IMG/VR virus record: IMGVR_UViG_3300005683_000050
Location: 85,669-149,668 of that record
Direction: 5' to 3' (one strand)
Length of the DNA: 64,000 nt
Origin: a virus
Lineage: Duplodnaviria > Heunggongvirae > Uroviricota > Caudoviricetes
Both the position numbers and the translations under genes were made by a program. The notes under the pieces were generated by a model. That model saw only the letters and a program-made list of their open reading frames with translations. It was not told the origin of the DNA and did no database searches. This document shows, in pieces, positions 13,141 to 61,666 of the stretch (positions are counted from its first letter, which is position 1; every line of letters begins with the position of its first letter).

Positions 13141-14443
13141 TTTGACTCTCCTCTTCCCCGCTTTGAGAATCTGATGAATTAGATTCTGGATTAACCTCTG
13201 GGCGTTGATTATCCATTGATACCTCTATGGTTCTCACGTTTCTAACATATACATCTCCGTCTGGTGTCTTTTCGAGACCCACTTCTTCGGCAAATTGATT
13301 TACTGTAATCGCTCCCTTTTCAAACGCGTTTGAAGCCCGCGCCCATCGCTTATCAATATCGTCCTGAAGTGCTGGAACTTTTGAGAAATCCCATTCCATG
13401 ATAACATTTAAGTCTTCATTCAGGTCGTTATTTATTTTATCAGAGATTCTCTTGTATTGTGGAGATAAGGTGTCCTGCCAAAACGCTTTTCTAGCAGCTT
13501 CATAATTGCTATAGGTTGACGCCTTTAACCCTATGCTTGCTCCGACCAAGATGGGAGGTGTTCTTAAACAGCTGCAAATTCTTGCCTCAGAACGAGCGTC
13601 CAGAAACTCAAATCCCATTTCTTCAAATGTCAAACCGATTTTCTGAAATTGTGCATCCGAGTCCAAAACTACTGGGTCTAGCCAATTTTCAAATCCACCG
13701 TATCGTTCCCTCCATCGAGAACGAATTTCCTCTACCTGAGACTCAATAAGCTTTTGCTTGGTTGTCAACATTCCTGGTGGAGTTCCACCCTTTTCAAAGA
13801 ACAGCTTTACAAAGTCAGTACTGGCATTGTCAACATCTCCCATCCGAGCTGCGACCTGAACGGGAGGAAGTCCATTATACATATTTGATGGGTCGAATAG
13901 CTTAAATTCAAGAATGCTGTCGGTTGGCATAACTATCGCTTGTAATCCAGGTGGGGCATAGCGGTATCCATCAATAAATGTTCCAGACGAACGTATCGGT
14001 GAAACCCAGTCTGGTCTCATAGGCCAAAGTTCTACTACTTTTCCAGACCTGTTTTTTACCTTTTCCCAGTAAGAGACTCCAGCTAAGTCCAAGTACATCA
14101 GTGTGGCACTGAAGAAGTCGAACTCTGTCATATATTTATTTGGTCGTTCTATCAACATACGAGTCGGATGGTTTTCTATAATGGCGCGTGAACGCCTGTC
14201 GCGCGCAACCAAACGTGGAATTGCTGCCGAATCCGCTTTTAAGGAAATACAGGCGAAAATTAGTTCGTTCTTTTTGAACCCATGCTGTACCGCATTCTCA
14301 AAATTCCATTTTTGGTACGATGGGGTCTGATTTGTCCATGAATTCAACATCGTAGATATTGCGTTCTGTTGCGTTGCCGCAGAACGCTTAAACGAAGAAC
14401 TGAATCCGCTTGCGAATCTGTCAAATATACTCATTAAAACCAA
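13121..14443 (-). CDS. portal protein (HK97-family-like)
   Basis: 440 aa, immediately downstream of TerL; acidic C-terminus; Phage_portal-like core. Confidence 0.7.
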   Translation of the reverse strand: MVLMSIFDRFASGFSSSFKRSAATQQNAISTMLNSWTNQTPSYQKWNFENAVQHGFKKNELIFACISLKADSAAIPRLVARDRRSRAIIENHPTRMLIERPNKYMTEFDFFSATLMYLDLAGVSYWEKVKNRSGKVVELWPMRPDWVSPIRSSGTFIDGYRYAPPGLQAIVMPTDSILEFKLFDPSNMYNGLPPVQVAARMGDVDNASTDFVKLFFEKGGTPPGMLTTKQKLIESQVEEIRSRWRERYGGFENWLDPVVLDSDAQFQKIGLTFEEMGFEFLDARSEARICSCLRTPPILVGASIGLKASTYSNYEAARKAFWQDTLSPQYKRISDKINNDLNEDLNVIMEWDFSKVPALQDDIDKRWARASNAFEKGAITVNQFAEEVGLEKTPDGDVYVRNVRTIEVSMDNQRPEVNPESNSSDSQSGEEESQNDKSNI

Positions 14444-16824
14444 ATCCCTCCCAAAGAACTATTTCCAGCAAGCTTCATATAAGCCCCACTACTTGCGTCT
14501 ACCATATCGTCGTGTACCCTCTTGTTTGGAAACAATTCGAGCTCTTGCAAATAATTTCGATTCCATCCAGCTTTAGCCAGATAAACATGTCGAGCCTCGC
14601 ACATCCCGCTAAACGGCTTTGCTCGGTGAACCTTTTGTCCAGTCATGCGAAAACCATCAAATATAAAATCTGGAAGAACATTTCTGCGATAGTGGTCAAT
14701 TACTGTCTTGCCACTTGCGCCAGGTTCTTGCTCGATATATATCTCTGTTTCATATCCATCTGCAACCGCGCATCTTTTAACCAGCTCTTCAACTTGGGAG
14801 GGAGTGCCTCGAAATTGCTGTACGTCCAGAATGTAAAATTCGTTTTGAGAAGATATTCCCATTAGCACTCCAGCTGTATAGTCGGGGTCGTTATTTCCAT
14901 AATCGGCAACTGTAGCAGCCAAGTCCCAATATCGAACTTTTCTAATAAGCGGAGGAAAGTTTTCAATTGGCGCGGTGTTCTGTCCGTCAAACCATTCCCT
15001 CTTAAACATCTCGCCTTGTTCTTCAATATCCCAGTCTCCAAACAAAAGCCTCGCTCTGGTTACTGGGTCTAACTCGGCAAGAAAACCAGCATATTCTTCT
15101 GCATTGATAGCTGGGTTGTCGTTGATAGTCGCTGGTATAAAGATGCGACCATTTGCGCGTCCCTCATCAATAAATCTCTTCTTGACCCAAACGTGACCTG
15201 GGCCACCAGGATTAGTAGCTGCCCGCATACGAAGCGGAACTTCAACGCCCTTAACGCGACGAATACGAGAAAACAGATATAAATACTGACTTTCTGTAAA
15301 CTGAGTCAATTCATCAAATCCGCAAAATTGTATTTCCGCACCCTGATAGCGCAGCTTATCTCTTTCACTCTCTAAGTATCCGAATGTTAGTGTTGCGCCA
15401 GAGGGAAAGGTGAACTGGTGCTTTTCCGAATCCCACCTTGCATCTGTTCCAGAAAGCCATTCAATCGCGCGAGACATAAGTGCTTGTGGCAACGAAAGGT
15501 CTCTGTAGGTTCTACGTAGTAAAAGAGCTGCGTATCCTGGTACGTCAACATATTGCAGGGCAGACATGAGAAGTGCGGAGCTGTTGTGCGTAACGATAAA
15601 GTCGTTTGTAAGATACATTCCGTTCGGATGGGAGACGGTTATACATCTTCCCCGCACAGTTCCGCCCTTTTCCACCCTAACAACCGCGCGGTATAGATTG
15701 TCGTCAACCTTACATCTTTCTGCCTTTCGCTTAATCCTAAACAGGGACGGCTCATTTCTATGTCTTATATATATCGTATAGGATAACCTTCCAAAGACCT
15801 TTTCTCCACTGGCGTCTCTATAGAATGGGTACTTTTCCGAAACAGTCGCAACCCCGCCCAGTGAGCGAACAATAAAACACACATCTTTGCACATTTGTTC
15901 GCTAGTTGTTGTGTAGTACACCTGCCCTCTTGCATCGGCAGTCCCATCAGTGTCTAGCAATCCTTGTAGTACGCTAAGTCTCGTTTTTACGCTTCCCATC
16001 AAAAACTCTCTGGGAACAAATTTTGTGTCCGATTTAGTTCCCATTAGTCCAAGTTTTTCTAGTTGAGACCTAACGGTTGACAAAGACTGTCCTTTGAGAA
16101 AGTACGAAAACTTACCGTCGTAGCGAAAGTCCATTCCCCTCAAAACGTTATCTCGAATGTGTTCGTGGTCATTCCCACTAATACTGACGGATTGACCAGA
16201 AATACATCCATCTCCCAGAATGTACCCCAACAGATACGGGTCTAGGTTGGATGGATTTCTGTTTGTTACGTTAAAAACTTGCTCGTGACACACTGGAATT
16301 AGAGGTCTTCTTGAAGAGCCATCGCGTTCGGAGCGAATCAGACTTTCGTCAGACCATTTCTTTAAGGTGAATGTATCTATTACCTGCGCGCTCTCCTCTC
16401 CAAACACTCTCTTGCCCTTTATCTTTTTCCCCTTACGCGCTCTCCAGCATACCCACAAATGCTCTCCGTTAACCTCTATTGAAGTTCCATCGTGAAAAAG
16501 TACCTTAAACTTTTCAAGTTCAAACACTGGATGGAGCTGTATTATCTTCGCAACCGTACCGTCTGGGTTATTTACAGCATCTCCAACGCGAAGGTCTTTT
16601 ATTTGCTTAAACCCAAACGGTGTCAGAACAAAGTCGTCAAGTTTTTGGCCTTTCCCGCCGCTTGCTGCGCCGCCAAATAGTACTTCCTTGTTTTGGGTCA
16701 ACAGAAACGCGGTTTGTTTGGGACTTGGTTTCTGAATGATGTACTTATTTAGTTTTGGAAAAAATTTGGTTACATCTATTTTGTCCCAATTGTCTCTAAT
16801 CGTTTCTGGGGTTATTATATTCAC
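14434..16824 (-). CDS. terL: terminase large subunit interrupted by an intein
   Basis: N-extein ends in FGGAASGGK (Walker A, completed by SS after the intein); C-terminal nuclease domain; 796 aa, of which about 355 are intein. Confidence 0.8.
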   Translation of the reverse strand: MNIITPETIRDNWDKIDVTKFFPKLNKYIIQKPSPKQTAFLLTQNKEVLFGGAASGGKGQKLDDFVLTPFGFKQIKDLRVGDAVNNPDGTVAKIIQLHPVFELEKFKVLFHDGTSIEVNGEHLWVCWRARKGKKIKGKRVFGEESAQVIDTFTLKKWSDESLIRSERDGSSRRPLIPVCHEQVFNVTNRNPSNLDPYLLGYILGDGCISGQSVSISGNDHEHIRDNVLRGMDFRYDGKFSYFLKGQSLSTVRSQLEKLGLMGTKSDTKFVPREFLMGSVKTRLSVLQGLLDTDGTADARGQVYYTTTSEQMCKDVCFIVRSLGGVATVSEKYPFYRDASGEKVFGRLSYTIYIRHRNEPSLFRIKRKAERCKVDDNLYRAVVRVEKGGTVRGRCITVSHPNGMYLTNDFIVTHNSSALLMSALQYVDVPGYAALLLRRTYRDLSLPQALMSRAIEWLSGTDARWDSEKHQFTFPSGATLTFGYLESERDKLRYQGAEIQFCGFDELTQFTESQYLYLFSRIRRVKGVEVPLRMRAATNPGGPGHVWVKKRFIDEGRANGRIFIPATINDNPAINAEEYAGFLAELDPVTRARLLFGDWDIEEQGEMFKREWFDGQNTAPIENFPPLIRKVRYWDLAATVADYGNNDPDYTAGVLMGISSQNEFYILDVQQFRGTPSQVEELVKRCAVADGYETEIYIEQEPGASGKTVIDHYRRNVLPDFIFDGFRMTGQKVHRAKPFSGMCEARHVYLAKAGWNRNYLQELELFPNKRVHDDMVDASSGAYMKLAGNSSLGGIWF
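15583..16650 (-). mobile_element. intein with LAGLIDADG homing-endonuclease domain inside the terL P-loop
   Basis: Hint block A-like KLDDFVLTPFGFKQIKDLRVGD; LAGLIDADG blocks LLGYILGDGCI and LQGLLDTDGT; C-terminal IVTHN followed by +1 Ser; the exact N-terminal junction is uncertain (no Cys/Ser at residue 1). Confidence 0.6.
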
Positions 16825-24606: not shown

Positions 24607-24612
24607 ATACAG

Positions 24613-24698
24613 AGGACGGGAAGAGAATCGAACTCTCAGAGCTTTTACACCCGCACGTTTAGCAAACGTGGTAGCACTACCAATATGCCAGCCCGTCC
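24613..24698 (-). tRNA. tRNA-Ser(GCT), type II
   Basis: acceptor GGACGGG/CCCGTCC, anticodon arm CACGT-TTGCTAA-ACGTG, long variable arm. Confidence 0.7.
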
Positions 24699-30986: not shown

Positions 30987-31322
30987 CTACTGGACTAGCC
31001 ATCCAAAGTTATATCCGTATATACTGACCCCACTGATACGACTGAAGTGCATTCGCCTCATAGTGTCTACTCTAAAATCGCAAACAATAATTCTGTCGTT
31101 CAGTTCGACCACAACACCTTCATGCGCCCTATAAGACCCGCGCATCGTTGAGTCAATAATCGGCATTTGTCTCGCAACAACATCTCCGACCACGAGACTT
31201 TCGAGCCATGCGGTTCGAGATAAATCTGTTTTGGCGGGAATTGCTGGATTAGCGATTTCGCATTGTTTCATCTTTGCATTCAGAACAACATTCCTGTCCG
31301 CACAAAACAGGAATGTTGTCAA
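30987..31322 (-). CDS. hypothetical protein 111 aa
   Basis: minus ORF. Confidence 0.3.
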   Translation of the reverse strand: MTTFLFCADRNVVLNAKMKQCEIANPAIPAKTDLSRTAWLESLVVGDVVARQMPIIDSTMRGSYRAHEGVVVELNDRIIVCDFRVDTMRRMHFSRISGVSIYGYNFGWLVQ

Positions 31323-32533
31323 TCCTTGTAAGGGTCGTACTCGTTTCCAGCCATGAGGACAATGCGCGGATAAAGTGTTATTTCATTCTTCACGTACGTT
31401 GAGTGTGAATCCAAAACGTCTTGCAACTTTTGGTACACAAAAGGACTTTCGTCCGTTCCCCCTCCGAGCAGATAAACACCGTATTCGTTTAGCGCATCAT
31501 ACATCATGTTCCTTGAAATCTTTCCGCCAGAACGTTCTCTTGTCTTATAGTTAAGCTTCCCAGCTGCTTCTGTGCGAGACATGACACGCCCAGCACCATG
31601 CATCGCAGAGCGAAATGAATACAAGTAATCTTCCGTACTAACGCCGCGAATTACAGCAGACATGTCAGCCATGCTTCCTCCGACAACAGAACAAGATTCC
31701 GTATCGAGAGGCGTAGCTCCCTTGCGGATAACGATAACGTCATCTCCGAAATGCGATTCGCGCCACGCGAAGTTGTGGTGATTATGTACCGTAAACGTAA
31801 CGTTGCTCCCCAATTCATTTGCAATCGTATCCACTACCCAATTACGTCCAGCGTATGCATATTCGCCAGCTAAACTCATCGCATCCCAATACAGACTACC
31901 TAGTTCTGTGTTCGTTCGGTATGCCACTGGATAAATGCCCTCTTTTTCTCCAGACACTTTGTCGCTGAACCGCTTGCCCTCTCCCAAATTCAGAAATCCA
32001 CTTGCTACCGCATGTCCGAACCCACGCGAACCAAAGTGAGCCATAATCCAAAGGTATCCATCTTCGTCGGATAGAAAATCAACAAAGTGATTACCAGAGC
32101 CTACAGTTCCCAATTGCACCATTGCCTTTTGTTTCAATGGCGCAAAGAACTCATGTTTCCACAGCTCGTTATCGAATAGCGGAGACCACACTTCGGTATT
32201 GTTTTTCCTGCCAATACCGAATGAAACCACATTATCGTAAATATGTGCCGCAAATTTTGCGAGAAATCCATCTGGCAATTTATCTAATTGAACATCTGTG
32301 CGGCTTGCTCGAATACCACAGGCAATATCGTATCCAACCCAAGCGGGAACAACCATGTCTGGCTCTACCACAATAACACTACCGACTGGCGCGCTATATC
32401 CCTTGTGGTTGTCTGCCATCAAAGCAGCTCCGATTACGCCATTAACCTGAACGCAATTCTGAATCTGCTCGAAAGCACCGCTATCAACCCTACCAAACGT
32501 TGTTATCCCGTTAATTATTTTCATTGTTTTCAC
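31319..32533 (-). CDS. rtcB: RtcB RNA 3'-phosphate/2',3'-cyclic-phosphate ligase
   Basis: GSGNHF, HNHHNF and HGAGR metal/GTP-binding signatures; 404 aa. Confidence 0.85.
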   Translation of the reverse strand: MKTMKIINGITTFGRVDSGAFEQIQNCVQVNGVIGAALMADNHKGYSAPVGSVIVVEPDMVVPAWVGYDIACGIRASRTDVQLDKLPDGFLAKFAAHIYDNVVSFGIGRKNNTEVWSPLFDNELWKHEFFAPLKQKAMVQLGTVGSGNHFVDFLSDEDGYLWIMAHFGSRGFGHAVASGFLNLGEGKRFSDKVSGEKEGIYPVAYRTNTELGSLYWDAMSLAGEYAYAGRNWVVDTIANELGSNVTFTVHNHHNFAWRESHFGDDVIVIRKGATPLDTESCSVVGGSMADMSAVIRGVSTEDYLYSFRSAMHGAGRVMSRTEAAGKLNYKTRERSGGKISRNMMYDALNEYGVYLLGGGTDESPFVYQKLQDVLDSHSTYVKNEITLYPRIVLMAGNEYDPYKD

Positions 32534-33769: not shown

Positions 33770-34537
33770 TCAACCCACTCTGTTTGTCAAGTGGGATACG
33801 CCAATCTTAGTTGAGTAACTATGTGGGGCGTTACATTTAGAGCAGTGGTATCCATTATGCCCCTTTTGACAAGCCCCAGTCCCGCGATAGTTTTTATAAT
33901 CTCCGTTTTGTGGACTTACGCCTACTGGCGCAACCATATTGTAACACTCTGGGCAAATGCACTTTGCCGATACATAGGTCTGTGCCTGCCTAATCTGTTT
34001 GCGAATTCTGGCAGTCCAATTCTTGTCACAAATAATTGAAATGAAAATATAGAATCCACTCGATATGATTTCTAAACTGTTTTGGGAGTAGTGTCTAAGT
34101 ATTTCACCAAATGCAGACAGAACCAATCTCAATGCGTCCTGATTATACGGCAAATTTTTTGTGTTCCACCATGTATCAGATTCTACGTCATATCCAACCG
34201 AGTCAACAATGTCAGTGATAATTTTACAGGCGGACATACATATAGAGCGTTCCCTATCCGACATTTTACTGGGGGGTACAGTCTGCCATATGGTTGCCAG
34301 ACTGTACCACAGAGAACTCTTGGACATCATTATCAGTTCCGCTATTTGATAAGGAGAAATGCCAGAGTAATTCTTTCCACTACTTATCATCATTTCCATG
34401 AACATTGCCTCACTCATCATTATCTGATGGTGGTCAACCCCACTCGGAACGGGTAATCCCTGCGAACGACACGCCAAACGCAATGCAGACAACTGCTGTG
34501 CGCTTGGAGTTTTCCATGTAAAATCTATTTCTTCCAT
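33770..34537 (-). CDS. hypothetical protein 255 aa with C-terminal Cys-rich region
   Basis: CICPECYN...CQKGHNGYHCSKCN. Confidence 0.35.
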   Translation of the reverse strand: MEEIDFTWKTPSAQQLSALRLACRSQGLPVPSGVDHHQIMMSEAMFMEMMISSGKNYSGISPYQIAELIMMSKSSLWYSLATIWQTVPPSKMSDRERSICMSACKIITDIVDSVGYDVESDTWWNTKNLPYNQDALRLVLSAFGEILRHYSQNSLEIISSGFYIFISIICDKNWTARIRKQIRQAQTYVSAKCICPECYNMVAPVGVSPQNGDYKNYRGTGACQKGHNGYHCSKCNAPHSYSTKIGVSHLTNRVG

Positions 34538-35553
34538 ATAAATAATGGCTCTTCCTTGTGACTTATGCTAGACTTATTTCCCCTGCCAAGCATCTTGCTA
34601 AGTCGCATATGATACACAGACGGCTCTCCGAACAATGCAGTGGCAATTTTCTTCGTGTCGTCAATAATCGGATTTCCCACATTAAGGGCGAAAAATCCGC
34701 CTTGCTTTAGGGCGAAATATGATTTTTCAATAAGCGGTCTTAGGAATCCATTCACCCACATCTCGTAGGTTTTGTATCTGACCCACGACTGAGTACTATC
34801 GTCAGCATATTTCTCTATATTGAAATATGGAGGCGATGTAAAAACCAAATCATAGTTGCATCCAACCGAAGAGTCTTCAAACGGAATCGCATCGAGTACT
34901 ACGCCAGTGTTCGCTCCAAGTCTGGTCATATACTCTGCCATCTCGCCATTATTTTCTTGAGTTTTTCTGTTTGCGTCTATGCCGTGATACGTGAGCAACT
35001 TATCGGTAGAAAGAGCTCCAAGCAGTCTTCCCCCGTAACCAGCGCAAGGGTCTAACACATTTCCATTTCTTGGAGCGAATGTGCTATAAACCCATTTCGC
35101 AACTGTTGGCCTAAAGTTTGAAACAGACTGTACCCCAAATGCCTTGAGAGACTTTCGCACGTTGTATGCAACCAACTTTGTGTCAGAGTATTTCACCCTT
35201 TTGCGAAGAGCTGTTCTAAAAAGGTCTCTGTCACTAAAGACCTCGTATGGTGTCTTTGCGTTATTGCAACGCACATGCCACATCTCAGGATGAAAACTGT
35301 TGGCAGTATTTAGCCCCAACATGAATTGTTGTAGAATGTTTCCGCCAATCAAAATCCTACTTGTGTCAAACTTTAGTAAAGACTCGAACTCTCGCTCTGC
35401 CTTTGAGTGGTCATAATAGGGGAATCCGTTTTGGTAGTAATAGTCTATAACTGTATCAATTGCGGAGCGAATAACTTCTTCTGGATATTCCCTTAGCGTT
35501 TTGCATGGGACTTTGATAACATCGTCATAGGAAAAATTATATGGCAAGTGCAT
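34525..35553 (-). CDS. DNA methyltransferase (N6-adenine/N4-cytosine class)
   Basis: DLVFTSPPYFNIEKY motif IV (SPPY). Confidence 0.65.
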   Translation of the reverse strand: MHLPYNFSYDDVIKVPCKTLREYPEEVIRSAIDTVIDYYYQNGFPYYDHSKAEREFESLLKFDTSRILIGGNILQQFMLGLNTANSFHPEMWHVRCNNAKTPYEVFSDRDLFRTALRKRVKYSDTKLVAYNVRKSLKAFGVQSVSNFRPTVAKWVYSTFAPRNGNVLDPCAGYGGRLLGALSTDKLLTYHGIDANRKTQENNGEMAEYMTRLGANTGVVLDAIPFEDSSVGCNYDLVFTSPPYFNIEKYADDSTQSWVRYKTYEMWVNGFLRPLIEKSYFALKQGGFFALNVGNPIIDDTKKIATALFGEPSVYHMRLSKMLGRGNKSSISHKEEPLFIWKK

Positions 35554-36322: not shown

Positions 36323-36528
36323 GTTTCACGCAACCACGTTCACTGTCAATTCGACCCTGACGTACTCATTATTACCTACCATCACAAATCCTATGATGAT
36401 AAAGTAATTTGTCATAAACAACACGGTGGTGTTGTGTATGGTAGCAATGTTGTATATTTTTATTGAGTCGCCATTACTGATTATACCAACTCTTTTATCA
36501 GTGAATAGGTCGTTTACTTTTTTAGAGG

Positions 36529-36601
36529 TGGACACAACGAGACTCGAACTCGTAACTGCTCTGTGCGATAGAGCGATTTTCCCAATTAGAACTATGCGCC
36601 C
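36529..36601 (-). tRNA. tRNA-Ala(CGC)
   Basis: anticodon arm GCTCT-ATCGCAC-AGAGC; G3:U70 pair in acceptor GGGCGCA/TGTGTCC. Confidence 0.55.
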
Positions 36602-36972: not shown

Positions 36973-37056
36973 CGAAAAGGATTGTATTTCGCAGATTACT
37001 TGTGGGAATCTGACATAACCAACGCCTTTAATTTGAAACGATAGCGTTACGTTTAG

Positions 37057-37134
37057 TGGAGACTACGAGATTTGAACTCGCCTGAACATTCTCATTGCAA
37101 GTGAGACTACCACCCCTAGCAGTACCAGTCCCCA
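37057..37134 (-). tRNA. tRNA-Ala(TGC)
   Basis: anticodon arm TCTCA-CTTGCAA-TGAGA; G3:U70; T loop TTCAAAT. Confidence 0.6.
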
Positions 37135-37467: not shown

Positions 37468-37804
37468 GTATAACTATTGACGACCCTCGTTGCGCTTAAA
37501 AACTGCGTAGGCAGACATGAAAACTTTATCTTTGCTTTTTTCTGGGTCTTCGATATTCTTCAAATACCAGTCCCCATTTGGAAACCGAGAGTTATATCTG
37601 TGGTGACTATAGTAAGACGTAAATCCAGCGTCGTGTTCGTAGAATTGAACTCCGCTACTTCGATGTCGCAAGAGCAAACTTCCGTCAGAATCTATCGCGT
37701 AGATTGTAATGTCCCCCTTGAACTCTCCACCGCCATTTTCGTACCAGACATAAATTGTGTTCACGTTTATTCTATCACACTCACATTTATTATTTATCGA
37801 GATA

Positions 37805-37945
37805 AAAAAACAGCTTTCGGTGGGCGAGTAATATCTAAGTATTACTTCTAAGGCAAGGCTGTTATAAGTGGGTTTATTACGTAATCATTTACCACTCCCC
37901 CTACACGCTACGGTGAGACTACTCACACCCCGAAAGCTGTTTTTA
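37805..37945. repeat. long-range inverted repeat (AAAAACAGCTTTCGG-GTG-GCGAGTA ... TACTCAC-ACC-CCGAAAGCTGTTTTT)
   Basis: imperfect 25-nt arms enclosing about 90 nt just 3' of tRNA-Gly. Confidence 0.35.
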
Positions 37946-37946
37946 G

Positions 37947-38019
37947 AGCATCAGACGAGACTTGAACTCGCGTTATTCTACTTGGCAAGCAGACGCTTTT
38001 CCAACTAAGCTACTGACGC
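37947..38019 (-). tRNA. tRNA-Gly(GCC)
   Basis: anticodon arm TCTGC-TTGCCAA-GTAGA; acceptor GCGTCAG/CTGATGC. Confidence 0.65.
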
Positions 38020-38026
38020 GAAATGG

Positions 38027-39037
38027 GTTGCAGACTACACCCAACAGTGTCCCCACAATCACTCAGTCCTGCTCTTCACAGTGTCCGAGTATGTCCACCC
38101 ACGAGTTACCACGTAGGTTTGAAGACTGTCGTCGTATTCCGAAACATACGCTAGTGCTTTGCGTATTGCATCGGTTTGTTTTTAAGGCGCATACCACGCC
38201 TAAACGTGCAGAGTATTTTCCGCATCCGTATTACCGAATATCCTGCGTTAGCTAGACGTAGAATAATCTGCAATCGTGACACGTAACGTCTGTTTGGGCA
38301 GAACGTTTCCCACTTAAGGGTGAGACGACTCTTTCTACTTTACACGCGCTGGGCATTTTCCATTTGCTGTTATAAACTAACATGCTTCATATGCTTGTGT
38401 TTATTTACCCTATCTCGATGTAGCCCAGCTAGTTTGGACACGACTTGTCGCCGCCCCTTAACTACACCGAATTGTTGTTGCTTAGTTCCGCAAAGAACCT
38501 CACAATTACGTAACTGCATCCCATTCTCTTTCGAGCTGCAAGGATTGTTACTTTCAAAACCGCCCGCTCCGCTAAGAGCTGACTTTGTTTCCCGTATGCA
38601 ATTTTATTGTGCTTGCGACACTCAGCATTTCTGCCTACATCACCTGTCGTCTTCAGCGTTGCCCCATACAGACTATTGACATAGAAAGCATACATTTGGA
38701 TAGTTGAACGTTTCCGTCGGACTCTTGGGTATAAGTCCTTTATGTCCCTTTCGGGACTTTATCTTTGTGACTATCGGCTACAATCTCCCCAGCTTTTCCA
38801 CTCGCACTTTCACCTTGCGGATTCAATGCGGTGTCGGTTTGCACTTACCCGAAACTGGCTCGACATTTGGAATGTGCGGAATCGAACCGCTTTACCATTC
38901 ATCCCACATTCATTTTTTAAGGTTGAGCGTAGGTTGTCAACGCCATTACGCATCCTTACGGATAGCTCCACTGCATACCTTTCGGTAGTTTCTTAGAGCC
39001 GTTGTCATCAGCCCCTTTCTCGTCGCTCAGTAAATAC
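38027..39037 (-). ncRNA. uncharacterised ~1 kb non-coding region transcribed from the promoter at 39038-39066
   Basis: no minus-strand ORF of at least 60 aa; plus-strand ORFs are Cys/Leu-rich artefacts; a strong consensus promoter points into it; contains a tRNA-like minihelix. Confidence 0.3.
38868..38912 (-). other. tRNA-like minihelix (acceptor stem + T arm only)
   Basis: GAATGT-GGGATGAATGGTAAA-GCGG-TTCGATT-CCGC-ACATTC-CA; canonical T loop but no D or anticodon arm. Confidence 0.3.
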
Positions 39038-39066
39038 ATTGTATCACAAATTTATTTATTTGTCAA
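39038..39066 (-). promoter_or_regulatory. sigma70-type promoter TTGACA-17-TACAAT
   Basis: TTGTGA extended -10. Confidence 0.6.
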
Positions 39067-39075
39067 TACGGTTTG

Positions 39076-39158
39076 TGCGCTAAGAGGGATTTGAACCCCC
39101 ACGTCCTTACGAACAACTGCTTTTGAGACAATCGCGGCTACCGTTACGCCATTAGCGC
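39076..39158 (-). tRNA. tRNA-Leu(CAA), type II
   Basis: anticodon loop CTCAAAA; long variable arm; acceptor GCGCTAA/TTAGCGC. Confidence 0.7.
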
Positions 39159-41225: not shown

Positions 41226-41710
41226 ATGTGGGGAATTATACGCACTCTCCCCATGAAACGTCAGGACTTTCCCTGCTGCCATACATTTCCTACGGGCAGA
41301 TTTCATCTAGAATTTTTCTGCGTGTCGCCGCATGTAGGACGGATTCGTATTCCCTATGTGCTATTACGCCAAAGGCGAGAGTTAACATTGCAATTACCTC
41401 TCACGCGTGTTGCGCGCTGTCCTTAGTATACGTCTCCTTTACGGATTGTTGCACCCACAATGGAGGTTTCGCATTATTCCGTATCGCTCTTACATCGTAT
41501 ACCATACGCCACTCTTTAGAGGATTGATGCTTTTAATCAAACCTTTAGGGAATAGAATTTGAGATTATCGTATCTCACTGCGGTTTGAGTCAATGCCCCG
41601 TTTCACGGGCGCTCCCGCACGACTATCTGTGTTTCGCCCCACTCGAATGGAGACGTATCTTGTGAGGTTACTCAGAATCGTTCTGTACAATGTCTCCGCC
41701 TTAGTCTCAG
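41226..41710 (-). other. ~480-nt non-coding spacer inside the tRNA array (candidate structured RNA)
   Basis: no ORF above 35 aa on the minus strand; several local hairpins (GGAGAC...GTCTCC, GCCCGTGAAACGGGGC); no tRNA fold found. Confidence 0.25.
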
Positions 41711-42302: not shown

Positions 42303-42331
42303 ATCATATCACAGAATCTGATTTTTGTCAA
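42303..42331 (-). promoter_or_regulatory. sigma70-type promoter TTGACA-17-TATGAT
   Basis: TCTGTGA extended -10. Confidence 0.55.
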
Positions 42332-42623
42332 GCAATATACCGCGCGCTACTGCGCGGTCAAACCAGTCGAAACTTTCCTGAACGATGTGGTCTCCAACTA
42401 TTGCCTCTTGACCATCAATCATAAACGAAAAAAAATCTGCCTGCAAGATTCCTTCAGAAATAGATGTAAAAACCATAGATATAAGGTTTGAGCTTGACGT
42501 ATTGTACTGAATGTTTTGAGAGACAGTTATCGCTCCAACAATTTCGTAAAAAATCTTTGTCAACTCAAAGTCCGAGAACGCTTTTCCAGTTCTAGTATAG
42601 TTTATAACAATCATTAATGCCAC
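42309..42623 (-). CDS. hypothetical protein 104 aa
   Basis: minus ORF. Confidence 0.3.
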   Translation of the reverse strand: MALMIVINYTRTGKAFSDFELTKIFYEIVGAITVSQNIQYNTSSSNLISMVFTSISEGILQADFFSFMIDGQEAIVGDHIVQESFDWFDRAVARGILLDKNQIL

Positions 42624-42627
42624 TCCA

Positions 42628-42700
42628 TACTGGGTGTCGGACTCGAACCGACTTCTATCGCGAGCGCGATTATGTTCTCCATACTAGCACCAATCCCAGT
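42628..42700 (-). pseudogene. tRNA-like element without anticodon arm (decayed tRNA or tRNA-mimic)
   Basis: good acceptor ACTGGG/CCCAGT and T arm GTCGG-TTCGAGT-CCGAC; the expected anticodon position holds a 5-bp hairpin with 4-nt loop (ATCGC-GCTC-GCGAT). Confidence 0.3.
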
Positions 42701-42926: not shown

Positions 42927-42934
42927 GCAAACTA

Positions 42935-43111
42935 TCAAAACATATAGGAGAAAGCCGCCGCTACCGCGATTCCAACAGCCAGAATCATACAAATTGCCAG
43001 CAGTAAAAATGCCACGAACCGTAGCCATCCACGACTGTGCTTGTTAGCATATAATGCTACCGTCGCGTTTGCAATCAATGCAACCTCAAGTAAAAATGTT
43101 TGTGTGTCCAT
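42935..43111 (-). CDS. small membrane protein 58 aa (paralog family)
   Basis: MDTQTFLLEVALIANATVAL...; its own promoter upstream; below ORF-track cutoff. Confidence 0.3.
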   Translation of the reverse strand: MDTQTFLLEVALIANATVALYANKHSRGWLRFVAFLLLAICMILAVGIAVAAAFSYMF

Positions 43112-43117
43112 GACGCT

Positions 43118-43146
43118 ATGATACCACGAATTAAAAGTTTTGTCAA
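43118..43146 (-). promoter_or_regulatory. sigma70-type promoter TTGACA-17-TATCAT
   Basis: TCGTGG before the -10. Confidence 0.55.
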
Positions 43147-43156
43147 TAGCGAGATG

Positions 43157-43390
43157 TCAACGATACGCTAAATATAAATTGTAAAACAGAGCTCCAACAA
43201 AAACAACTGTGGAAGTAGCCGCGAAAAGCAAATACAAAGCCCCTAGCATTTCCAAGAATCTTTCAACGTGTCGCATTTGCTCCGCCTTGACCTTTCGGGT
43301 AAGGCTTGCGACCAATACACACATCATAGAAAGAGCTCCGAACAAAATTACAGTTTGGATTATTGGAAGTAATTCTATCACTGAAACCAC
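43157..43390 (-). CDS. small membrane protein 77 aa
   Basis: two TM helices. Confidence 0.35.
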   Translation of the reverse strand: MVSVIELLPIIQTVILFGALSMMCVLVASLTRKVKAEQMRHVERFLEMLGALYLLFAATSTVVFVGALFYNLYLAYR

Positions 43391-43557
43391 GCAATCATAC
43401 TGGAAACAGCTACAGAGAACGCCATCCCGACAGAAGCTATCATCAGGATAAGAGTGCCAATTTTAATGAACGATACGCTGGTGTGCATGTTCAAATACAT
43501 AGAAAAAGCACCAACAATCATAAATGACGCAAAAAGTATAAATGTATTTATGTCCAT
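43378..43557 (-). CDS. small membrane protein 59 aa (paralog family)
   Basis: MDINTFILFASFMIVGAFSM...; its own promoter upstream. Confidence 0.3.
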   Translation of the reverse strand: MDINTFILFASFMIVGAFSMYLNMHTSVSFIKIGTLILMIASVGMAFSVAVSSMIAWFQ

Positions 43558-43563
43558 GACTAC

Positions 43564-43592
43564 ATCATATCACAAAACGTAAAACTTGTCAA
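43564..43592 (-). promoter_or_regulatory. sigma70-type promoter TTGACA-17-TATGAT
   Basis: TTGTGA extended -10. Confidence 0.55.
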
Positions 43593-43750
43593 GTACCGAA
43601 ATAAAAATGCCTGTGGTCACATCACAGGCAATCACAAGGGAGGCGAATCGGCTGGTTGTGTGACTCAACCCAATCTCCACCTGCAAGAATCGAGCTTGCA
43701 CGTTTATGTTAACAGCATAACATACTACCGTTATATGAAGGTGGAATAAA

Positions 43751-49156: not shown

Positions 49157-49220
49157 ACAGTAACAAATTCTCGAAACACTATGTTTCCTTAAAAGGAATC
49201 ACGGCGTTTCGATTCGTGAG

Positions 49221-49308
49221 TAGGGTAGGGGAGGCTCGAACTCCCATAAATCCAATTATGCACTAACTGTTTAGAAGACAGTGCCAGTACTACCCCCAGT
49301 ACTACCCC
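49221..49308 (-). pseudogene. aberrant tRNA-like element (Arg-TCT-like hairpin, no D arm, 12-nt tandem duplication)
   Basis: acceptor GGGGTAG/CTACCCT and T arm GGGAG-TTCGAGC-CTCCC; hairpin ACTGT-CTTCTAA-ACAGT, also a degenerate copy of the AGACAGT motif; CAGTACTACCCC is duplicated at the 5' end. Confidence 0.3.
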
Positions 49309-58816: not shown

Positions 58817-59301
58817 CCAGACAACATCTCTTGAATCTCAAGCAATGCGGCGGTGTTTCCACCAGCGCGACTTAGTAGGTTCACAATGTCCAGCAGCTCT
58901 TTCTCGGACGTGCGTTGTTCTTCTAAGTACGGCTTCATAAAGTTGAATGCGTCAATGTCGCCAACGTCCCAACACAGCTTTGTCAAAGACACTATACGTT
59001 GTGTGTTTGCTTTTTCTAGATTGAGAGCGTTTTGAAATGCAGCCAACGGTTCTTTTACGATGTATCCGACAGCCGTATCCAGAGCATTCAATTCTGGAAT
59101 CTGATTTCTAGCAATCAAAAAGTTAGCAAACCCACATGCGTGTTCAGTTTCTTCTTCGGAAGATTTTTTCAGAAACTTGGCAAACCCGTCCCACGGAGCC
59201 ATCTCCATCGCATACGACATTTGAAGATAAGCTCTTGAATTTGCGTGTTCCGCGCAGAATTGTTCTACAAAAGCTTGGCGCAGTAATTCGTCTAATAGCA
59301 T
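58813..59301 (-). CDS. ferritin-like diiron protein
   Basis: paired ExxH motifs (CAEHANS..., EEETEHACGF) in a four-helix-bundle-like sequence. Confidence 0.45.
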   Translation of the reverse strand: MLLDELLRQAFVEQFCAEHANSRAYLQMSYAMEMAPWDGFAKFLKKSSEEETEHACGFANFLIARNQIPELNALDTAVGYIVKEPLAAFQNALNLEKANTQRIVSLTKLCWDVGDIDAFNFMKPYLEEQRTSEKELLDIVNLLSRAGGNTAALLEIQEMLSG

Positions 59302-59355
59302 AATTTACCACCTTTCGGTAAAAATTATACCACAAACGAATTACTGCGCCGACAG

Positions 59356-60354
59356 TTATTCGTCCTCGTTCTCGTCAACCGTCTTGTCTTTCAGTAGGTA
59401 CGAGTCTGAAATGTACTTTAGAATTACCCTACCAATCTTTGGGTCTCTACGCTCTTGAACGGGTCGGATAACAACACCCTCTCGGATATTGTCTCCTATT
59501 GTGCTTTTTCCATTTGCCAGACTCTTGACCTCTTCAATGGAAAACGGCATTACTCGCAAAACTGGAACAAGCTGAGCGTCATGTCTGTGCGCCAGAACAA
59601 TCATCTCCGTAAAATCAAGGTAATTCCCATCAACCATAATGTCGAATATCCTGAATCCGACACCATCTCTAACGTCGTAGGAAAATCCCTTTTGTACCTT
59701 CGCGCCGTAAATCTCTCCAAACAAAATAACGTGTTTGTGGGATTCCGAGAGAGAACCCAAAAGACTCTGTACCCAGTCTAGTTCAAATGGCATCCAGTAG
59801 ACATTGTTGCCTTCTTTGCGTCTGAGATTGTGGCTGCCAGCCATCCTCTCGCCGTCTATGTATGCCACGCGAGCATTTGTTCCGTGAATTTTCTCGGTAA
59901 CACAAACGCTCTCGCCCTCTGAAATAACTTGCGGGAAATTTCTTAGATTCTCAATGTCAGTGTATTTCAGGAATCGCGCGTCGTCAGTTTCGGTATCCCC
60001 ACCACTTAGGCGTAACGGAGATATATACTTGGTGCATCCGTAAAGGTCTGCCAGATTGTCTCCAACCTGAGAACCTGAAGGAGCAATTTGTACAAATCCA
60101 AACGAAGGCTCTCCGCGCAATGCTACAGCACGGACGCGTTGTTTGCTCAGGTATGGCGTAACTCCCATCTCATCAGAAACGCTTTGCGGCAAAACCGTAT
60201 CTGGCGGAAAATACACAACCTTATCTCCGACATTCAAAGTTCCCTTTTTGACAACAACCTGCCATCCAAGAATGTTTATAATTTCCAATCTGTCCGCGCT
60301 GGGATGAACCATTATTTCCGAGACTTCGACAACTGGAACTATTAGTGTTGACAT
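59356..60354 (-). CDS. ATP-dependent RNA ligase (Rnl family)
   Basis: nucleotidyltransferase motif I VTEKIHGTNARV (KxHGxN, typical of RNA rather than DNA ligases); 332 aa. Confidence 0.65.
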   Translation of the reverse strand: MSTLIVPVVEVSEIMVHPSADRLEIINILGWQVVVKKGTLNVGDKVVYFPPDTVLPQSVSDEMGVTPYLSKQRVRAVALRGEPSFGFVQIAPSGSQVGDNLADLYGCTKYISPLRLSGGDTETDDARFLKYTDIENLRNFPQVISEGESVCVTEKIHGTNARVAYIDGERMAGSHNLRRKEGNNVYWMPFELDWVQSLLGSLSESHKHVILFGEIYGAKVQKGFSYDVRDGVGFRIFDIMVDGNYLDFTEMIVLAHRHDAQLVPVLRVMPFSIEEVKSLANGKSTIGDNIREGVVIRPVQERRDPKIGRVILKYISDSYLLKDKTVDENEDE

Positions 60355-61344: not shown

Positions 61345-61560
61345 TCACAATAGATTCTCAAAATCATTTATGATGGAAGCTAGTTGCTCTGGCGGAAGAC
61401 CGACCATCTCGGAAATTTTCTGCATGGTTTGGATGTCTGGTTTCTCCACATACCTGAGAACGCCATATATTCCGAAAAGAATCATGGTTGCCTCTGGATG
61501 TTTTACATGTTCTATTTTTTCTAATAACTCAAATAAATTTTCCATATTTTTTACCTCCAC
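61345..61560 (-). CDS. hypothetical protein 71 aa
   Basis: minus ORF. Confidence 0.25.
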   Translation of the reverse strand: MEVKNMENLFELLEKIEHVKHPEATMILFGIYGVLRYVEKPDIQTMQKISEMVGLPPEQLASIINDFENLL

Positions 61561-61666
61561 TGGGAACGGGGTACTCGAAACCCAAGCAGATTATCAATCC
61601 GCTCCAACCGATTTCCAGTCGGTGACTGCTCGCCTGTCAGTTTCATTCCCAAAGAATTTACTGCCA

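What the first reader, a model, noticed from the sequence alone, without database searches (positions are those of the whole stretch)
38027..39037. ~1 kb ORF-free transcribed locus with a tRNA-like acceptor/T-arm minihelix
A consensus promoter (TTGACA-17-TACAAT with TTGTGA) fires into 1 kb with no credible ORF before tRNA-Gly. Inside it (38868-38912) is a 45-nt element with a perfect T arm (GCGG-TTCGATT-CCGC) flanked by a 6-bp acceptor-like stem, but no D or anticodon arms. The locus could be a large structured ncRNA, a decayed tRNA cluster, or a tRNA-mimic/decoy for tRNA-modifying or tRNA-cleaving enzymes.
Basis: partly seen in the sequence, partly recalled or inferred. Interest (0 to 1): 0.6.

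Follow-up and report, generated by a model that had tools for sequence, protein, structure and literature searches.

The report
Orphan 1-kb noncoding RNA in phage tRNA island
A 150-kb phage with 45 tRNA genes has a promoter-driven, roughly 1-kb stretch with no gene that most likely makes a large folded RNA released together with tRNA-Gly, but no relative was found, so the fold could not be tested by comparison.

Summary
On the minus strand, a TTGACA-17-TACAAT promoter with a TG extension (39066-39038) fires into about 1,012 nt (39031-38020). That stretch has no credible ORF and runs straight into tRNA-Gly(GCC) (38019-37946). A long hairpin with a U-run follows (37944-37804).

Evidence that the sense strand makes a structured RNA:
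- It folds much better than shuffles (z -4.3); the antisense strand does not (z +0.6). Nine coding controls show far less strand asymmetry.
- It carries 6 GNRA hairpins against 0.9 expected.
- It is richer in G+C and purines than the rest of the window.
- All six frames score negative for coding.

The 45-nt element is real and looks tRNA-derived: a 7-bp stem, a D-loop-like AAUGGUAAA and a canonical T-loop. Nearest-neighbour folding, however, prefers a plain hairpin (-17.1 against -8.3 kcal/mol).

Rfam 15 gives no match (GOLLD, ROOL, introns, RNase P and tmRNA included). No homologue turned up in GenBank phages, in pattern scans of IMG/VR, or in about 270 fetched loci around related genes. Covariation is therefore untestable.

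Best reading (about 0.5): a new, so far orphan, large phage RNA that resembles GOLLD/ROOL in context only. Main rival: a non-functional decayed spacer or leader.

The parts
39038..39066 (-). Sigma-70-type promoter: TTGACA, 17 nt, TACAAT, with a TG extension. The transcript is predicted to start near 39031.
   Evidence: 11 of 12 consensus positions, TG present; sequence.
38020..39031 (-). Predicted non-coding RNA of about 1,012 nt. It runs from the predicted transcription start to the base before the 5' end of tRNA-Gly, so RNase P cleavage would make its 3' end (inferred).
   Evidence: No coding signal. MFE -321.7 kcal/mol against -283.2 +/- 8.9 for shuffles, z -4.33; antisense strand z +0.61. 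Controls. GNRA hairpins 6 against 0.9 expected. G+C 46.5% and 58% purine. No Rfam match.
38952..39000 (-). 5' leader with two GNRA-capped hairpins, UACC-GAAA-GGUA and AUCC-GUAA-GGAU. The first is nested in a 7-bp helix.
   Evidence: pair probabilities 0.77-0.94.
38922..38947 (-). 5' strand of the predicted long-range closing helix (5 + 4 + 11 bp).
   Evidence: mean pair probability 0.85-0.91; duplex -27.1 kcal/mol; only 5 of 3,763 background windows do as well, which is roughly p 0.07 after allowing for the windows inside the RNA, and a near-equal competitor exists.
38022..38045 (-). 3' strand of the closing helix. It ends 2-3 nt before tRNA-Gly.
38870..38911 (-). tRNA-derived minihelix: 7-bp stem GAAUGUG/CACAUUC, D-loop-like AAUGGUAAA (38899-38891), 4-bp T stem GCGG/CCGC and T-loop UUCGAUU (consensus match at 38888-38878). 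There is no anticodon arm.
   Evidence: Not called a tRNA by ARAGORN or Rfam.
38744..38757 (-). The most stable internal hairpin, GUCCC-GAAA-GGGAC. It is one of six GNRA hairpins; the others with at least 4 bp are at 38707-38718, 38976-38987 and 38952-38963.
   Evidence: (pair probability 1.00).
37946..38019 (-). tRNA-Gly(GCC), co-transcribed directly downstream of the RNA.
   Evidence: (64.1 bits). No terminator-like site lies between the promoter and this tRNA on the minus strand.
37804..37944 (-). Long structured hairpin (30-nt arms, 79 nt between them) followed by a run of 7 U. It is the likely terminator of the transcription unit.
   Evidence: inverted repeat I1; -49.2 kcal/mol, z -4.05.

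Best explanation
The locus encodes a phage non-coding RNA of about 1.0 kb.

Shown:
- A strong host-type promoter.
- About 1 kb of sense-strand sequence with no coding signal that folds far better than chance, and only on the transcribed strand.
- No terminator before tRNA-Gly(GCC), and a hairpin plus U-run after it.

Inferred:
- The unit is transcribed as one precursor: RNA, tRNA-Gly, terminator hairpin.
- RNase P cleavage at the 5' end of tRNA-Gly creates the 3' end of the RNA.
- The body (about 900 nt) is a multi-domain fold closed by a long-range helix that pairs a segment just upstream of the minihelix with the last 25 nt. GNRA tetraloops supply tertiary contacts.
- The embedded anticodon-less tRNA remnant keeps the acceptor/T-arm/D-loop module that tRNA-processing enzymes recognise. 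It could act as a second processing or recognition site.

By context it behaves like GOLLD and ROOL, the large phage RNAs found beside tRNA islands and possibly co-transcribed with tRNAs. It is not a member of either family. What it does biochemically is unknown.
For: - Promoter and unit layout.
- No coding signal: no ORF above 77 aa on the gene strand, negative codon log-odds in all six frames, and ORF scores within the wrong-frame null. No Pfam or PHROG family.
- Folding: whole-RNA z -4.33 on the sense strand against +0.61 on the antisense strand. Nine 1-kb coding controls give sense z -0.4 to -3.1 and antisense +0.7 to -2.4. Their sense-minus-antisense difference averages -0.8, with -2.2 the most extreme, against -4.9 here. 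Sliding 200-nt windows are consistently negative on the sense strand only.
- GNRA hairpins with at least 4 bp: 6 on the sense strand against 0.89 expected (1 of 1,000 shuffles reaches this), and none on the antisense strand.
- Composition: G+C 46.5% (top 3.6% of 1-kb windows) and 58% purine on the sense strand (top 1.6%).
- Many helices have pair probability above 0.9, including a 20-bp closing helix.
- Literature: GOLLD and ROOL are large RNAs of phages and prophages, often near tRNA islands. tRNAs sometimes sit inside GOLLD, and co-transcription with tRNAs has been suggested (PMC12286853; PMC5737381).
Against: - No homologue was found, so there is no conservation or covariation evidence at all. 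Searches were: blastn against 50,697 phage records; nhmmer and blastn against about 270 loci (roughly 3 Mb) around relatives of the neighbouring methylase from IMG/VR, JGI metagenomes, GTDB genomes and ENA/Logan contigs; exact-pattern scans of IMG/VR. The only other copies are the same phage.
- Coding regions of this phage also give negative z-scores, down to -3.1, so the z-score alone is not decisive.
- One other 1-kb bin of the window has 7 GNRA hairpins.
- The closing helix is only marginally better than chance, about p 0.07, and has a near-equal competitor.
- Related phages with tRNA arrays next to the same methylase gene fill their gaps with small ORFs and have no comparable RNA.
- No expression data exist.
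Confidence: 0.5

Rival explanations
1. Non-functional spacer. The 1 kb is the decayed remains of small array genes and a tRNA, and is transcribed only as a long 5' leader of tRNA-Gly. The favourable folding and composition are by-products.
For: - The array is clearly in flux. It has duplicated tRNAs (two Ala-tgc, two Lys-ttt, two Asn-gtt and three Met-cat), a second defective tRNA-like element at 42626-42700, and the minihelix itself looks like a tRNA with an internal deletion.
- The sequence is an orphan.
- The neighbouring small ORFs are orphans too, so this region turns over fast.
- In the other units of the array an ORF occupies the equivalent position.
Against: - Decay should move composition towards the genome average, yet the region is G+C- and purine-enriched.
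- No frame keeps any residual coding signal or similarity.
- The sense-only folding excess (-4.9 in z) is about six control standard deviations from the coding controls.
- The minihelix stems carry no mismatch.
- The genome is otherwise tightly packed.
Confidence: 0.25
2. The functional part is the tRNA-like minihelix, possibly with the rest as carrier. It would act as a mimic or decoy for tRNA-binding, tRNA-modifying or tRNA-cleaving enzymes, or purely as an RNase P/RNase Z processing signal that cuts the transcript.
For: - A perfect 7-bp acceptor-like stem, a canonical T-loop and a D-loop-like GG string are retained while the anticodon arm is gone.
- A second element at 42626-42700 likewise keeps the acceptor and T arm but has a 4-nt 'anticodon' loop.
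- The phage invests heavily in tRNA biology: 45 tRNAs, RtcB and an RNA ligase.
- Acceptor/T-arm minihelices are known minimal RNase P substrates (established knowledge; not tested here).
Against: - The tRNA-like conformer is about 9 kcal/mol less stable than the competing hairpin.
- The T stem has only 4 pairs.
- The tRNA and tmRNA models do not score it.
- A decoy for anticodon nucleases would need an anticodon loop, which is absent.
- This reading does not explain the other roughly 950 nt.
Confidence: 0.1
3. The region holds one or more unrecognised small protein genes, for example the 77-aa ORF 38462-38695 or the 53-aa ORF 38810-38971, both on the minus strand.
For: - The source's gene caller called the 77-aa and 49-aa ORFs.
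- The 77-aa ORF scores +0.03 and the 53-aa ORF +0.02 in codon log-odds, at the upper edge of the null.
- The 53-aa ORF has an AAAGG six bases before its GTG and a weak PHROG hit, E 0.004 over 15 residues.
Against: - The scores lie within the wrong-frame null (95th percentile +0.037).
- There is no Pfam hit and no convincing PHROG hit.
- No Shine-Dalgarno sequence precedes the 77-aa ORF.
- The 53-aa ORF would be translated through the tRNA-like element.
- Together these ORFs cover well under half of the gap.
Confidence: 0.07
4. It is a highly divergent member of GOLLD or ROOL that the Rfam models miss.
For: Same genomic niche (a phage tRNA island, adjacent to and probably co-transcribed with a tRNA, with a tRNA-like element inside) and similar size.
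Against: No hit to any Rfam 15 family, even at E up to 10 with relaxed filters on the isolated 1 kb.
Confidence: 0.05

Closest known systems
GOLLD RNA (Rfam RF01998)
   Same: A large RNA (about 800 nt or more) encoded by phages and prophages, often beside tRNA islands. tRNAs sometimes lie inside its linker. No protein partner or function is known (PMC12286853). Here: about 1 kb, inside a 45-tRNA island, abutting tRNA-Gly, with a tRNA-derived element inside.
   Different: No match to the covariance model even at E 10. The embedded element is an anticodon-less remnant, not a full tRNA. No family and no covariation-supported structure exist for this RNA.
ROOL RNA (Rfam RF03087)
   Same: A large ornate RNA (mean 581 nt) of phages and prophages, near tRNAs. 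Co-transcription with tRNAs has been suggested (PMC5737381).
   Different: No model match. This RNA is almost twice as long, and no conserved multistem-junction or pseudoknot architecture could be established.
tRNA-like processing elements at the ends of long non-coding RNAs (mascRNA of MALAT1 / MEN-beta, Rfam RF01684) and the tRNA-like domain of tmRNA
   Same: A tRNA-like module without decoding function embedded in, or attached to, a longer RNA, which in those systems is recognised by RNase P and other tRNA enzymes (established knowledge). Here the acceptor-like stem, T-loop and D-loop-like GG are kept and the anticodon arm is missing.
   Different: No Rfam match to mascRNA or tmRNA in the region apart from a 15-nt T-loop fragment at E 1.2. 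ARAGORN finds no tmRNA. The tRNA-like fold is not the predicted minimum. Processing has not been shown.
Stable small RNAs of the phage T4 tRNA cluster (species 1 and 2, rnaC/rnaD)
   Same: Non-tRNA stable RNAs encoded within, and co-processed from, a phage tRNA transcription unit, with no known function (from my own knowledge; not checked here).
   Different: Those are about 120-140 nt. This candidate is about 1 kb and unrelated in sequence.

Membership tests
GOLLD RNA (RF01998) | Scores at or above the family's gathering threshold with the Rfam covariance model (conserved 3' domain). | tested here: not met
   No hit at the gathering threshold, nor at E up to 10 on 2.5 kb or on the isolated 1 kb.
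GOLLD RNA (RF01998) | Encoded in a phage or prophage, near or containing tRNAs. | tested here: met
   The phage contig carries terminase, portal and 45 tRNAs. The RNA abuts tRNA-Gly.
ROOL RNA (RF03087) | Scores with the Rfam covariance model (six multistem junctions, three pseudoknots). | tested here: not met
   No hit.
Structured RNA class in general | Base pairs supported by covariation among homologues. | not testable with these tools
   No homologue was retrievable. The only other copies are identical.
tRNA (RF00005) | Cloverleaf with D, anticodon and T arms and an acceptor stem (tested on the 45-nt element). | tested here: not met
   Not called by ARAGORN or by the tRNA model at E up to 10. 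There is no anticodon arm.
tmRNA | A tRNA-like domain formed by the two ends, plus a tag reading frame and pseudoknots. | tested here: not met
   ARAGORN finds no tmRNA. The only hit is a 15-nt T-loop fragment to cyano_tmRNA, 11.7 bits, E 1.2.
Group I / group II introns, RNase P RNA, known ribozymes and riboswitches | Match to the Rfam models. | tested here: not met
Protein-coding gene or pseudogene | An open frame with codon bias like the genome's genes, or similarity to known proteins. | tested here: not met
   Six-frame tblastn gave only a marginal clamp-loader hit (E 0.006) that no profile supports. The antisense 119-aa ORF has no real relatives among 1.84 billion representatives.
Intrinsically terminated sigma-70 transcription unit | A consensus promoter upstream and a hairpin plus U-run downstream. 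| tested here: met
   These are sequence predictions only, not expression data.

The most novel reading that the evidence does not exclude
This is the founding member of a third class of giant phage RNAs tied to tRNA islands, beside GOLLD and ROOL. It would be a roughly 1-kb RNA matured by the tRNA-processing machinery, with a built-in anticodon-less tRNA 'elbow' module, that forms a higher-order RNA-only or RNA-tRNA-enzyme assembly during infection.
Probability: 0.2. Interest if true: 0.75.

Novelty: new variant of a known kind. Interest (0 to 1): 0.5.

Why it matters
GOLLD and ROOL are among the largest bacterial or phage RNAs apart from ribosomal RNA. They were recently shown to form RNA-only nanocages, yet their function is still unknown (PMC12286853).

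An unrelated RNA of the same size in the same niche (a phage tRNA island, co-transcribed with a tRNA, with a tRNA-derived element inside) would suggest that the niche, rather than one fold, is what is selected. It would also give a third, independent system for asking what such RNAs do for phages.

The retained acceptor/T-arm module offers a concrete test: whether tRNA-processing enzymes mature or bind these RNAs. With one genome and no covariation, this remains a candidate only.

Tried and rejected
Known RNA families. Rfam 15 was run at the gathering threshold on the whole window and at E up to 10 on 2.5 kb and on the 1 kb alone. Only chance-level hits appeared.

DNA homologues:
- blastn against 50,697 phage records: none.
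- nhmmer and blastn against loci fetched through the neighbouring methylase family from IMG/VR, JGI metagenomes, GTDB genomes and ENA/Logan/JGI contigs: only the query itself.
- Exact-pattern scans of IMG/VR with the T-arm/acceptor string, a tRNA-Gly string and the D-loop/T-arm junction: nothing or chance coding hits.

Flanking proteins. The 102-aa and 96-aa ORFs are orphans. The 99%-identical JGI contig could not be fetched. The Logan contig is 100% identical.

Paralogues and repeats. There is no paralogue of the RNA in the window and no internal repeats.

Pseudogene idea. A plus-strand frame (38742-38996) hit clamp-loader genes in six loci at E 0.006-0.4. Pfam and PHROG profiles see nothing, and the geometry does not fit a whole gene. 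I rejected it as chance.

Antisense ORF. The 119-aa antisense ORF was searched against 1.84 billion representatives. Only two low-complexity repeat proteins came back.

Source of the minihelix. No convincing parent tRNA was found among the 45 tRNAs.

Shine-Dalgarno survey. A survey of real genes was too noisy to use.

Full report
CONTEXT. The window is part of ENA ERZ761584 NODE_4, a contig of 149,834 bp. It is a tailed-phage genome: terminase large subunit with a LAGLIDADG insertion, portal, prohead protease, RtcB, an RNA ligase and a ribonucleotide reductase. All long ORFs are on the minus strand, as are all 45 tRNA genes ARAGORN finds between 24.5 and 61.7 kb; Rfam confirms 39 of them at its gathering score. 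The phage has no close relative in GenBank phages or IMG/VR. Its portal is at most 29% identical to any phage record, and IMG/VR holds no relative of the portal.

THE OBSERVATION. The finding sits between tRNA-Leu(caa) 39075-39158 and tRNA-Gly(gcc) 37946-38019.
- On the minus strand there is TTGACA, a 17-nt spacer ending in TGA, then TACAAT at 39066-39038. This matches 11 of 12 consensus positions plus the TG extension.
- Seven such TG-extended promoters punctuate the array. Each heads a small unit that normally holds one ORF of about 100 aa and one or more tRNAs.
- In this unit the ORF's place is taken by 1,055 nt whose longest same-strand ORF is 77 aa.
- No terminator-like site lies between the promoter and tRNA-Gly on the minus strand.
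- Directly after tRNA-Gly comes a 30-nt-armed inverted repeat enclosing 79 nt, followed by seven U (-49.2 kcal/mol, z -4.05).
- The predicted unit is therefore: promoter, about 1,012 nt of RNA, tRNA-Gly, terminator hairpin.

NOT CODING.
- Codon log-odds were trained on 31 long genes of the window. They are negative in all six frames of the region (-0.26 to -0.51). The small ORFs of the array score 0.0 to +0.25 in their own frame.
- Individual ORFs in the region score -0.15 to +0.13. That is the range of wrong-frame ORFs inside real genes (mean -0.06, sd 0.07).
- Nine ORFs from both strands have no Pfam match and only a 15-residue PHROG match at E 0.004.
- Six-frame peptides compared by tblastn with 171 related loci gave one marginal family of hits (E 0.006) between a plus-strand frame and clamp-loader genes. 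Pfam and PHROG profiles do not see it, and a whole clamp-loader gene would not fit the gap. I treat it as chance.
- The 119-aa antisense ORF has no real relatives among 1.84 billion representative proteins.

SIGNS OF A STRUCTURED SENSE-STRAND RNA.
1. Folding energy. The 1,012-nt sense RNA folds at -321.7 kcal/mol against -283.2 +/- 8.9 for 48 dinucleotide shuffles (z -4.33). The antisense strand gives z +0.61. Nine 1-kb pieces of coding sequence from the same window give sense z between -0.4 and -3.1 and antisense z between +0.7 and -2.4. The candidate has the most negative z of the ten. More tellingly, its sense-minus-antisense difference is -4.9, against a mean of -0.8 and an extreme of -2.2 for the controls. 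Sliding 200-nt windows show the same one-sided pattern across 38000-39000.
2. GNRA hairpins. Tetraloops closed by at least 4 pairs occur 6 times on the sense strand against 0.89 expected (1 of 1,000 shuffles reaches 6), and never on the antisense strand. Only one other 1-kb bin of the window has as many.
3. Composition. G+C is 46.5% (window mean 43.1%; top 3.6% of 1-kb windows). The sense strand is 58% purine (top 1.6%). This is not the direction expected for a decaying sequence.
4. Well-defined helices. In the partition function many helices have pair probability above 0.9. Among them is a composite 20-bp helix pairing RNA positions 85-110 with 987-1010. It would close a domain of about 900 nt and place the RNA's 3' end next to tRNA-Gly. 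Taken alone this helix is only marginally better than chance, about p 0.07, and has a near-equal competitor.

THE tRNA-LIKE ELEMENT.
- The string GAAUGUG-GG-AUGAAUGGUAAA-GCGG-UUCGAUU-CCGC-ACAUUC is at 38911-38870.
- The T-loop consensus GGTTCRANTCC has 29 matches in the window (0.17 expected). Twenty-six lie in annotated tRNAs. The other three are this one, one at 42639-42649, and one on the plus strand inside a gene.
- The outer stem is a perfect 7 bp, or 6 bp if the T stem keeps its fourth pair.
- The 'spacer' contains AAUGGUAAA, which recurs only in the D-loop of tRNA-Trp. The element is therefore best read as a tRNA that lost its anticodon arm and variable region. No parent could be identified among the 45 tRNAs.
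- Nearest-neighbour folding prefers an extended hairpin (-17.1 kcal/mol) over the acceptor plus T-arm conformer (-8.3). A tRNA-like shape would therefore need the T-loop/D-loop tertiary contact or a protein.
- The region holds no other tRNA remnant. This argues against a decayed tRNA cluster.
- A second defective tRNA-like element at 42626-42700 keeps a 6-bp acceptor stem and a perfect 5-bp T arm but has a 4-nt 'anticodon' loop. Either tRNA decay is common in this array, or the acceptor/T-arm module is retained as a processing signal. I cannot tell which.

COMPARISON WITH KNOWN RNAS. Rfam 15 (4,227 families) gives nothing for the region at gathering thresholds, or at E up to 10 with relaxed filters on 2.5 kb and on the 1 kb alone. 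That covers GOLLD, ROOL, OLE, raiA, group I and II introns, RNase P, tmRNA, ribozymes and T-boxes.

The closest known kind is nonetheless GOLLD and ROOL. Both are large RNAs of phages and prophages, often near tRNA islands. tRNAs sometimes sit in the GOLLD linker, and co-transcription with tRNAs has been proposed as the reason for the linkage. Their function is unknown, and recent cryo-EM shows that both form RNA-only nanocages (PMC12286853; PMC5737381). The candidate shares their niche, their size and the embedded tRNA-like piece. It fails the only membership test available, the covariance models.

HOMOLOGUE SEARCH. This was the main effort, and it failed.
- blastn at low stringency against 50,697 phage records: no match.
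- The two flanking small proteins have no relatives among 5.8 billion clusters, apart from a 99%-identical copy on a JGI contig of 149,668 bp that could not be fetched.
- The neighbouring methylase-like gene (34525-35553) has more than 1,000 relatives, the best at 60% identity. I fetched their surroundings from ENA, JGI and Logan contigs, from IMG/VR (80 loci), from JGI metagenomes (80 loci) and from GTDB genomes (80 loci).
- nhmmer and blastn with the 1,056-nt query found only the query's own contig. The Logan copy is 100% identical, and the JGI copy has an identical 77-aa ORF.
- The closest relative (L006, ERZ724532) shares the order methylase, Band_7, RtcB and has tRNAs upstream, but its contig ends 570 nt beyond them.
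- More distant relatives with tRNA arrays beside the methylase gene fill their inter-tRNA gaps with ORFs.
- Three exact-pattern scans of IMG/VR gave nothing or chance hits.
- The structure therefore cannot be tested by covariation, and the RNA must be called an orphan for now.

VERDICT. Among its interpretations, the large structured RNA is the best supported. I put it at about 0.5, because all the evidence comes from one sequence. The main rival, at about 0.25, is a non-functional decayed spacer that is merely transcribed ahead of tRNA-Gly. The composition, the complete loss of coding signal and the strongly one-sided folding excess argue against that rival, but cannot exclude it. A decoy or processing role for the minihelix (about 0.1), hidden small proteins (about 0.07) and a very divergent GOLLD or ROOL (about 0.05) remain possible. 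If real, this is a new class within a known kind, not a member of a known family.

Noticed in passing
window 41226-41709 (-): A second ORF-free stretch (484 nt, longest same-strand ORF 41 aa) lies exactly between tRNA-Lys(ctt) and tRNA-Pro(cgg). Its base composition is almost the same as the 1-kb RNA's (G+C 46.9%, A 31%, U 22%). It folds at z -2.4, but the antisense strand folds as well (z -2.9). No Rfam match and no similarity to the 1-kb RNA. It may be a second non-coding RNA.
   Followed up: partly
window 42626-42700 (-): A defective tRNA-like element missed by ARAGORN and Rfam. It has a 6-bp acceptor stem and a perfect 5-bp T arm with GGTTCGAGTCC, but a 4-nt loop where the anticodon loop should be. 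It ends 2 nt before the start codon of the 104-aa ORF 42309-42623.
   Followed up: partly
window 37804-37944 (-): Directly after tRNA-Gly there is an unusually large terminator-like structure: 30-nt arms, 79 nt of further structure between them, then seven U (z -4.05). It could be a small stable RNA in its own right.
   Followed up: partly
window 42927-43673 (-): A third ORF-poor inter-tRNA gap (747 nt, longest ORF 77 aa). It has two TG-extended consensus promoters (43592, 43146) and three terminator-like hairpins. Unlike the 1-kb RNA, its composition is U-rich.
   Followed up: no
window 37764-37795 (-): The 96-aa ORF downstream of the unit starts at a GTG only 4 nt after a TG-extended -10 box (TGTGATAGAAT). 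Either the mRNA is leaderless or the start is elsewhere.
   Followed up: no
window 14434-16824 (-): The terminase large subunit (796 aa) carries a LAGLIDADG homing-endonuclease domain at residues 283-336, ahead of the matches to the ATPase (437-612) and nuclease (632-784) domains. This suggests an intein or an inserted endonuclease.
   Followed up: no
window 31319-32533 and 59356-60354 (-): The phage encodes both an RtcB-type RNA ligase and an Rnl-type RNA ligase with an OB-fold domain, alongside its 45 tRNAs. That looks like a full tRNA supply-and-repair kit, as expected for a phage facing anticodon nucleases.
   Followed up: no
window 24612-24698, 36527-36601, 37056-37133, 43674-43746, 49220-49308, 61560-61651 (-): Six tRNAs called by ARAGORN are absent from the whole-window Rfam list at gathering score. 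They include an 89-nt tRNA-Arg(tct) and a 78-nt tRNA-Ala(tgc). Some may be atypical or defective. 43675-43745 does score 51.9 bits in a smaller scan.
   Followed up: no
window 59000-59999 (-): This 1-kb bin, which holds part of the RNA-ligase gene, has 7 GNRA-capped hairpins on the sense strand. That is the only bin with more than the candidate RNA, so it weakens GNRA count as a stand-alone criterion.
   Followed up: no
L275 2589-3825: A relative of the methylase gene (55% identity, JGI 3300013137) is followed by a gene-free 1.2 kb. This turned out to be a dense cluster of at least 5 tRNAs plus further tRNA-like sequences, not a large RNA.
   Followed up: yes
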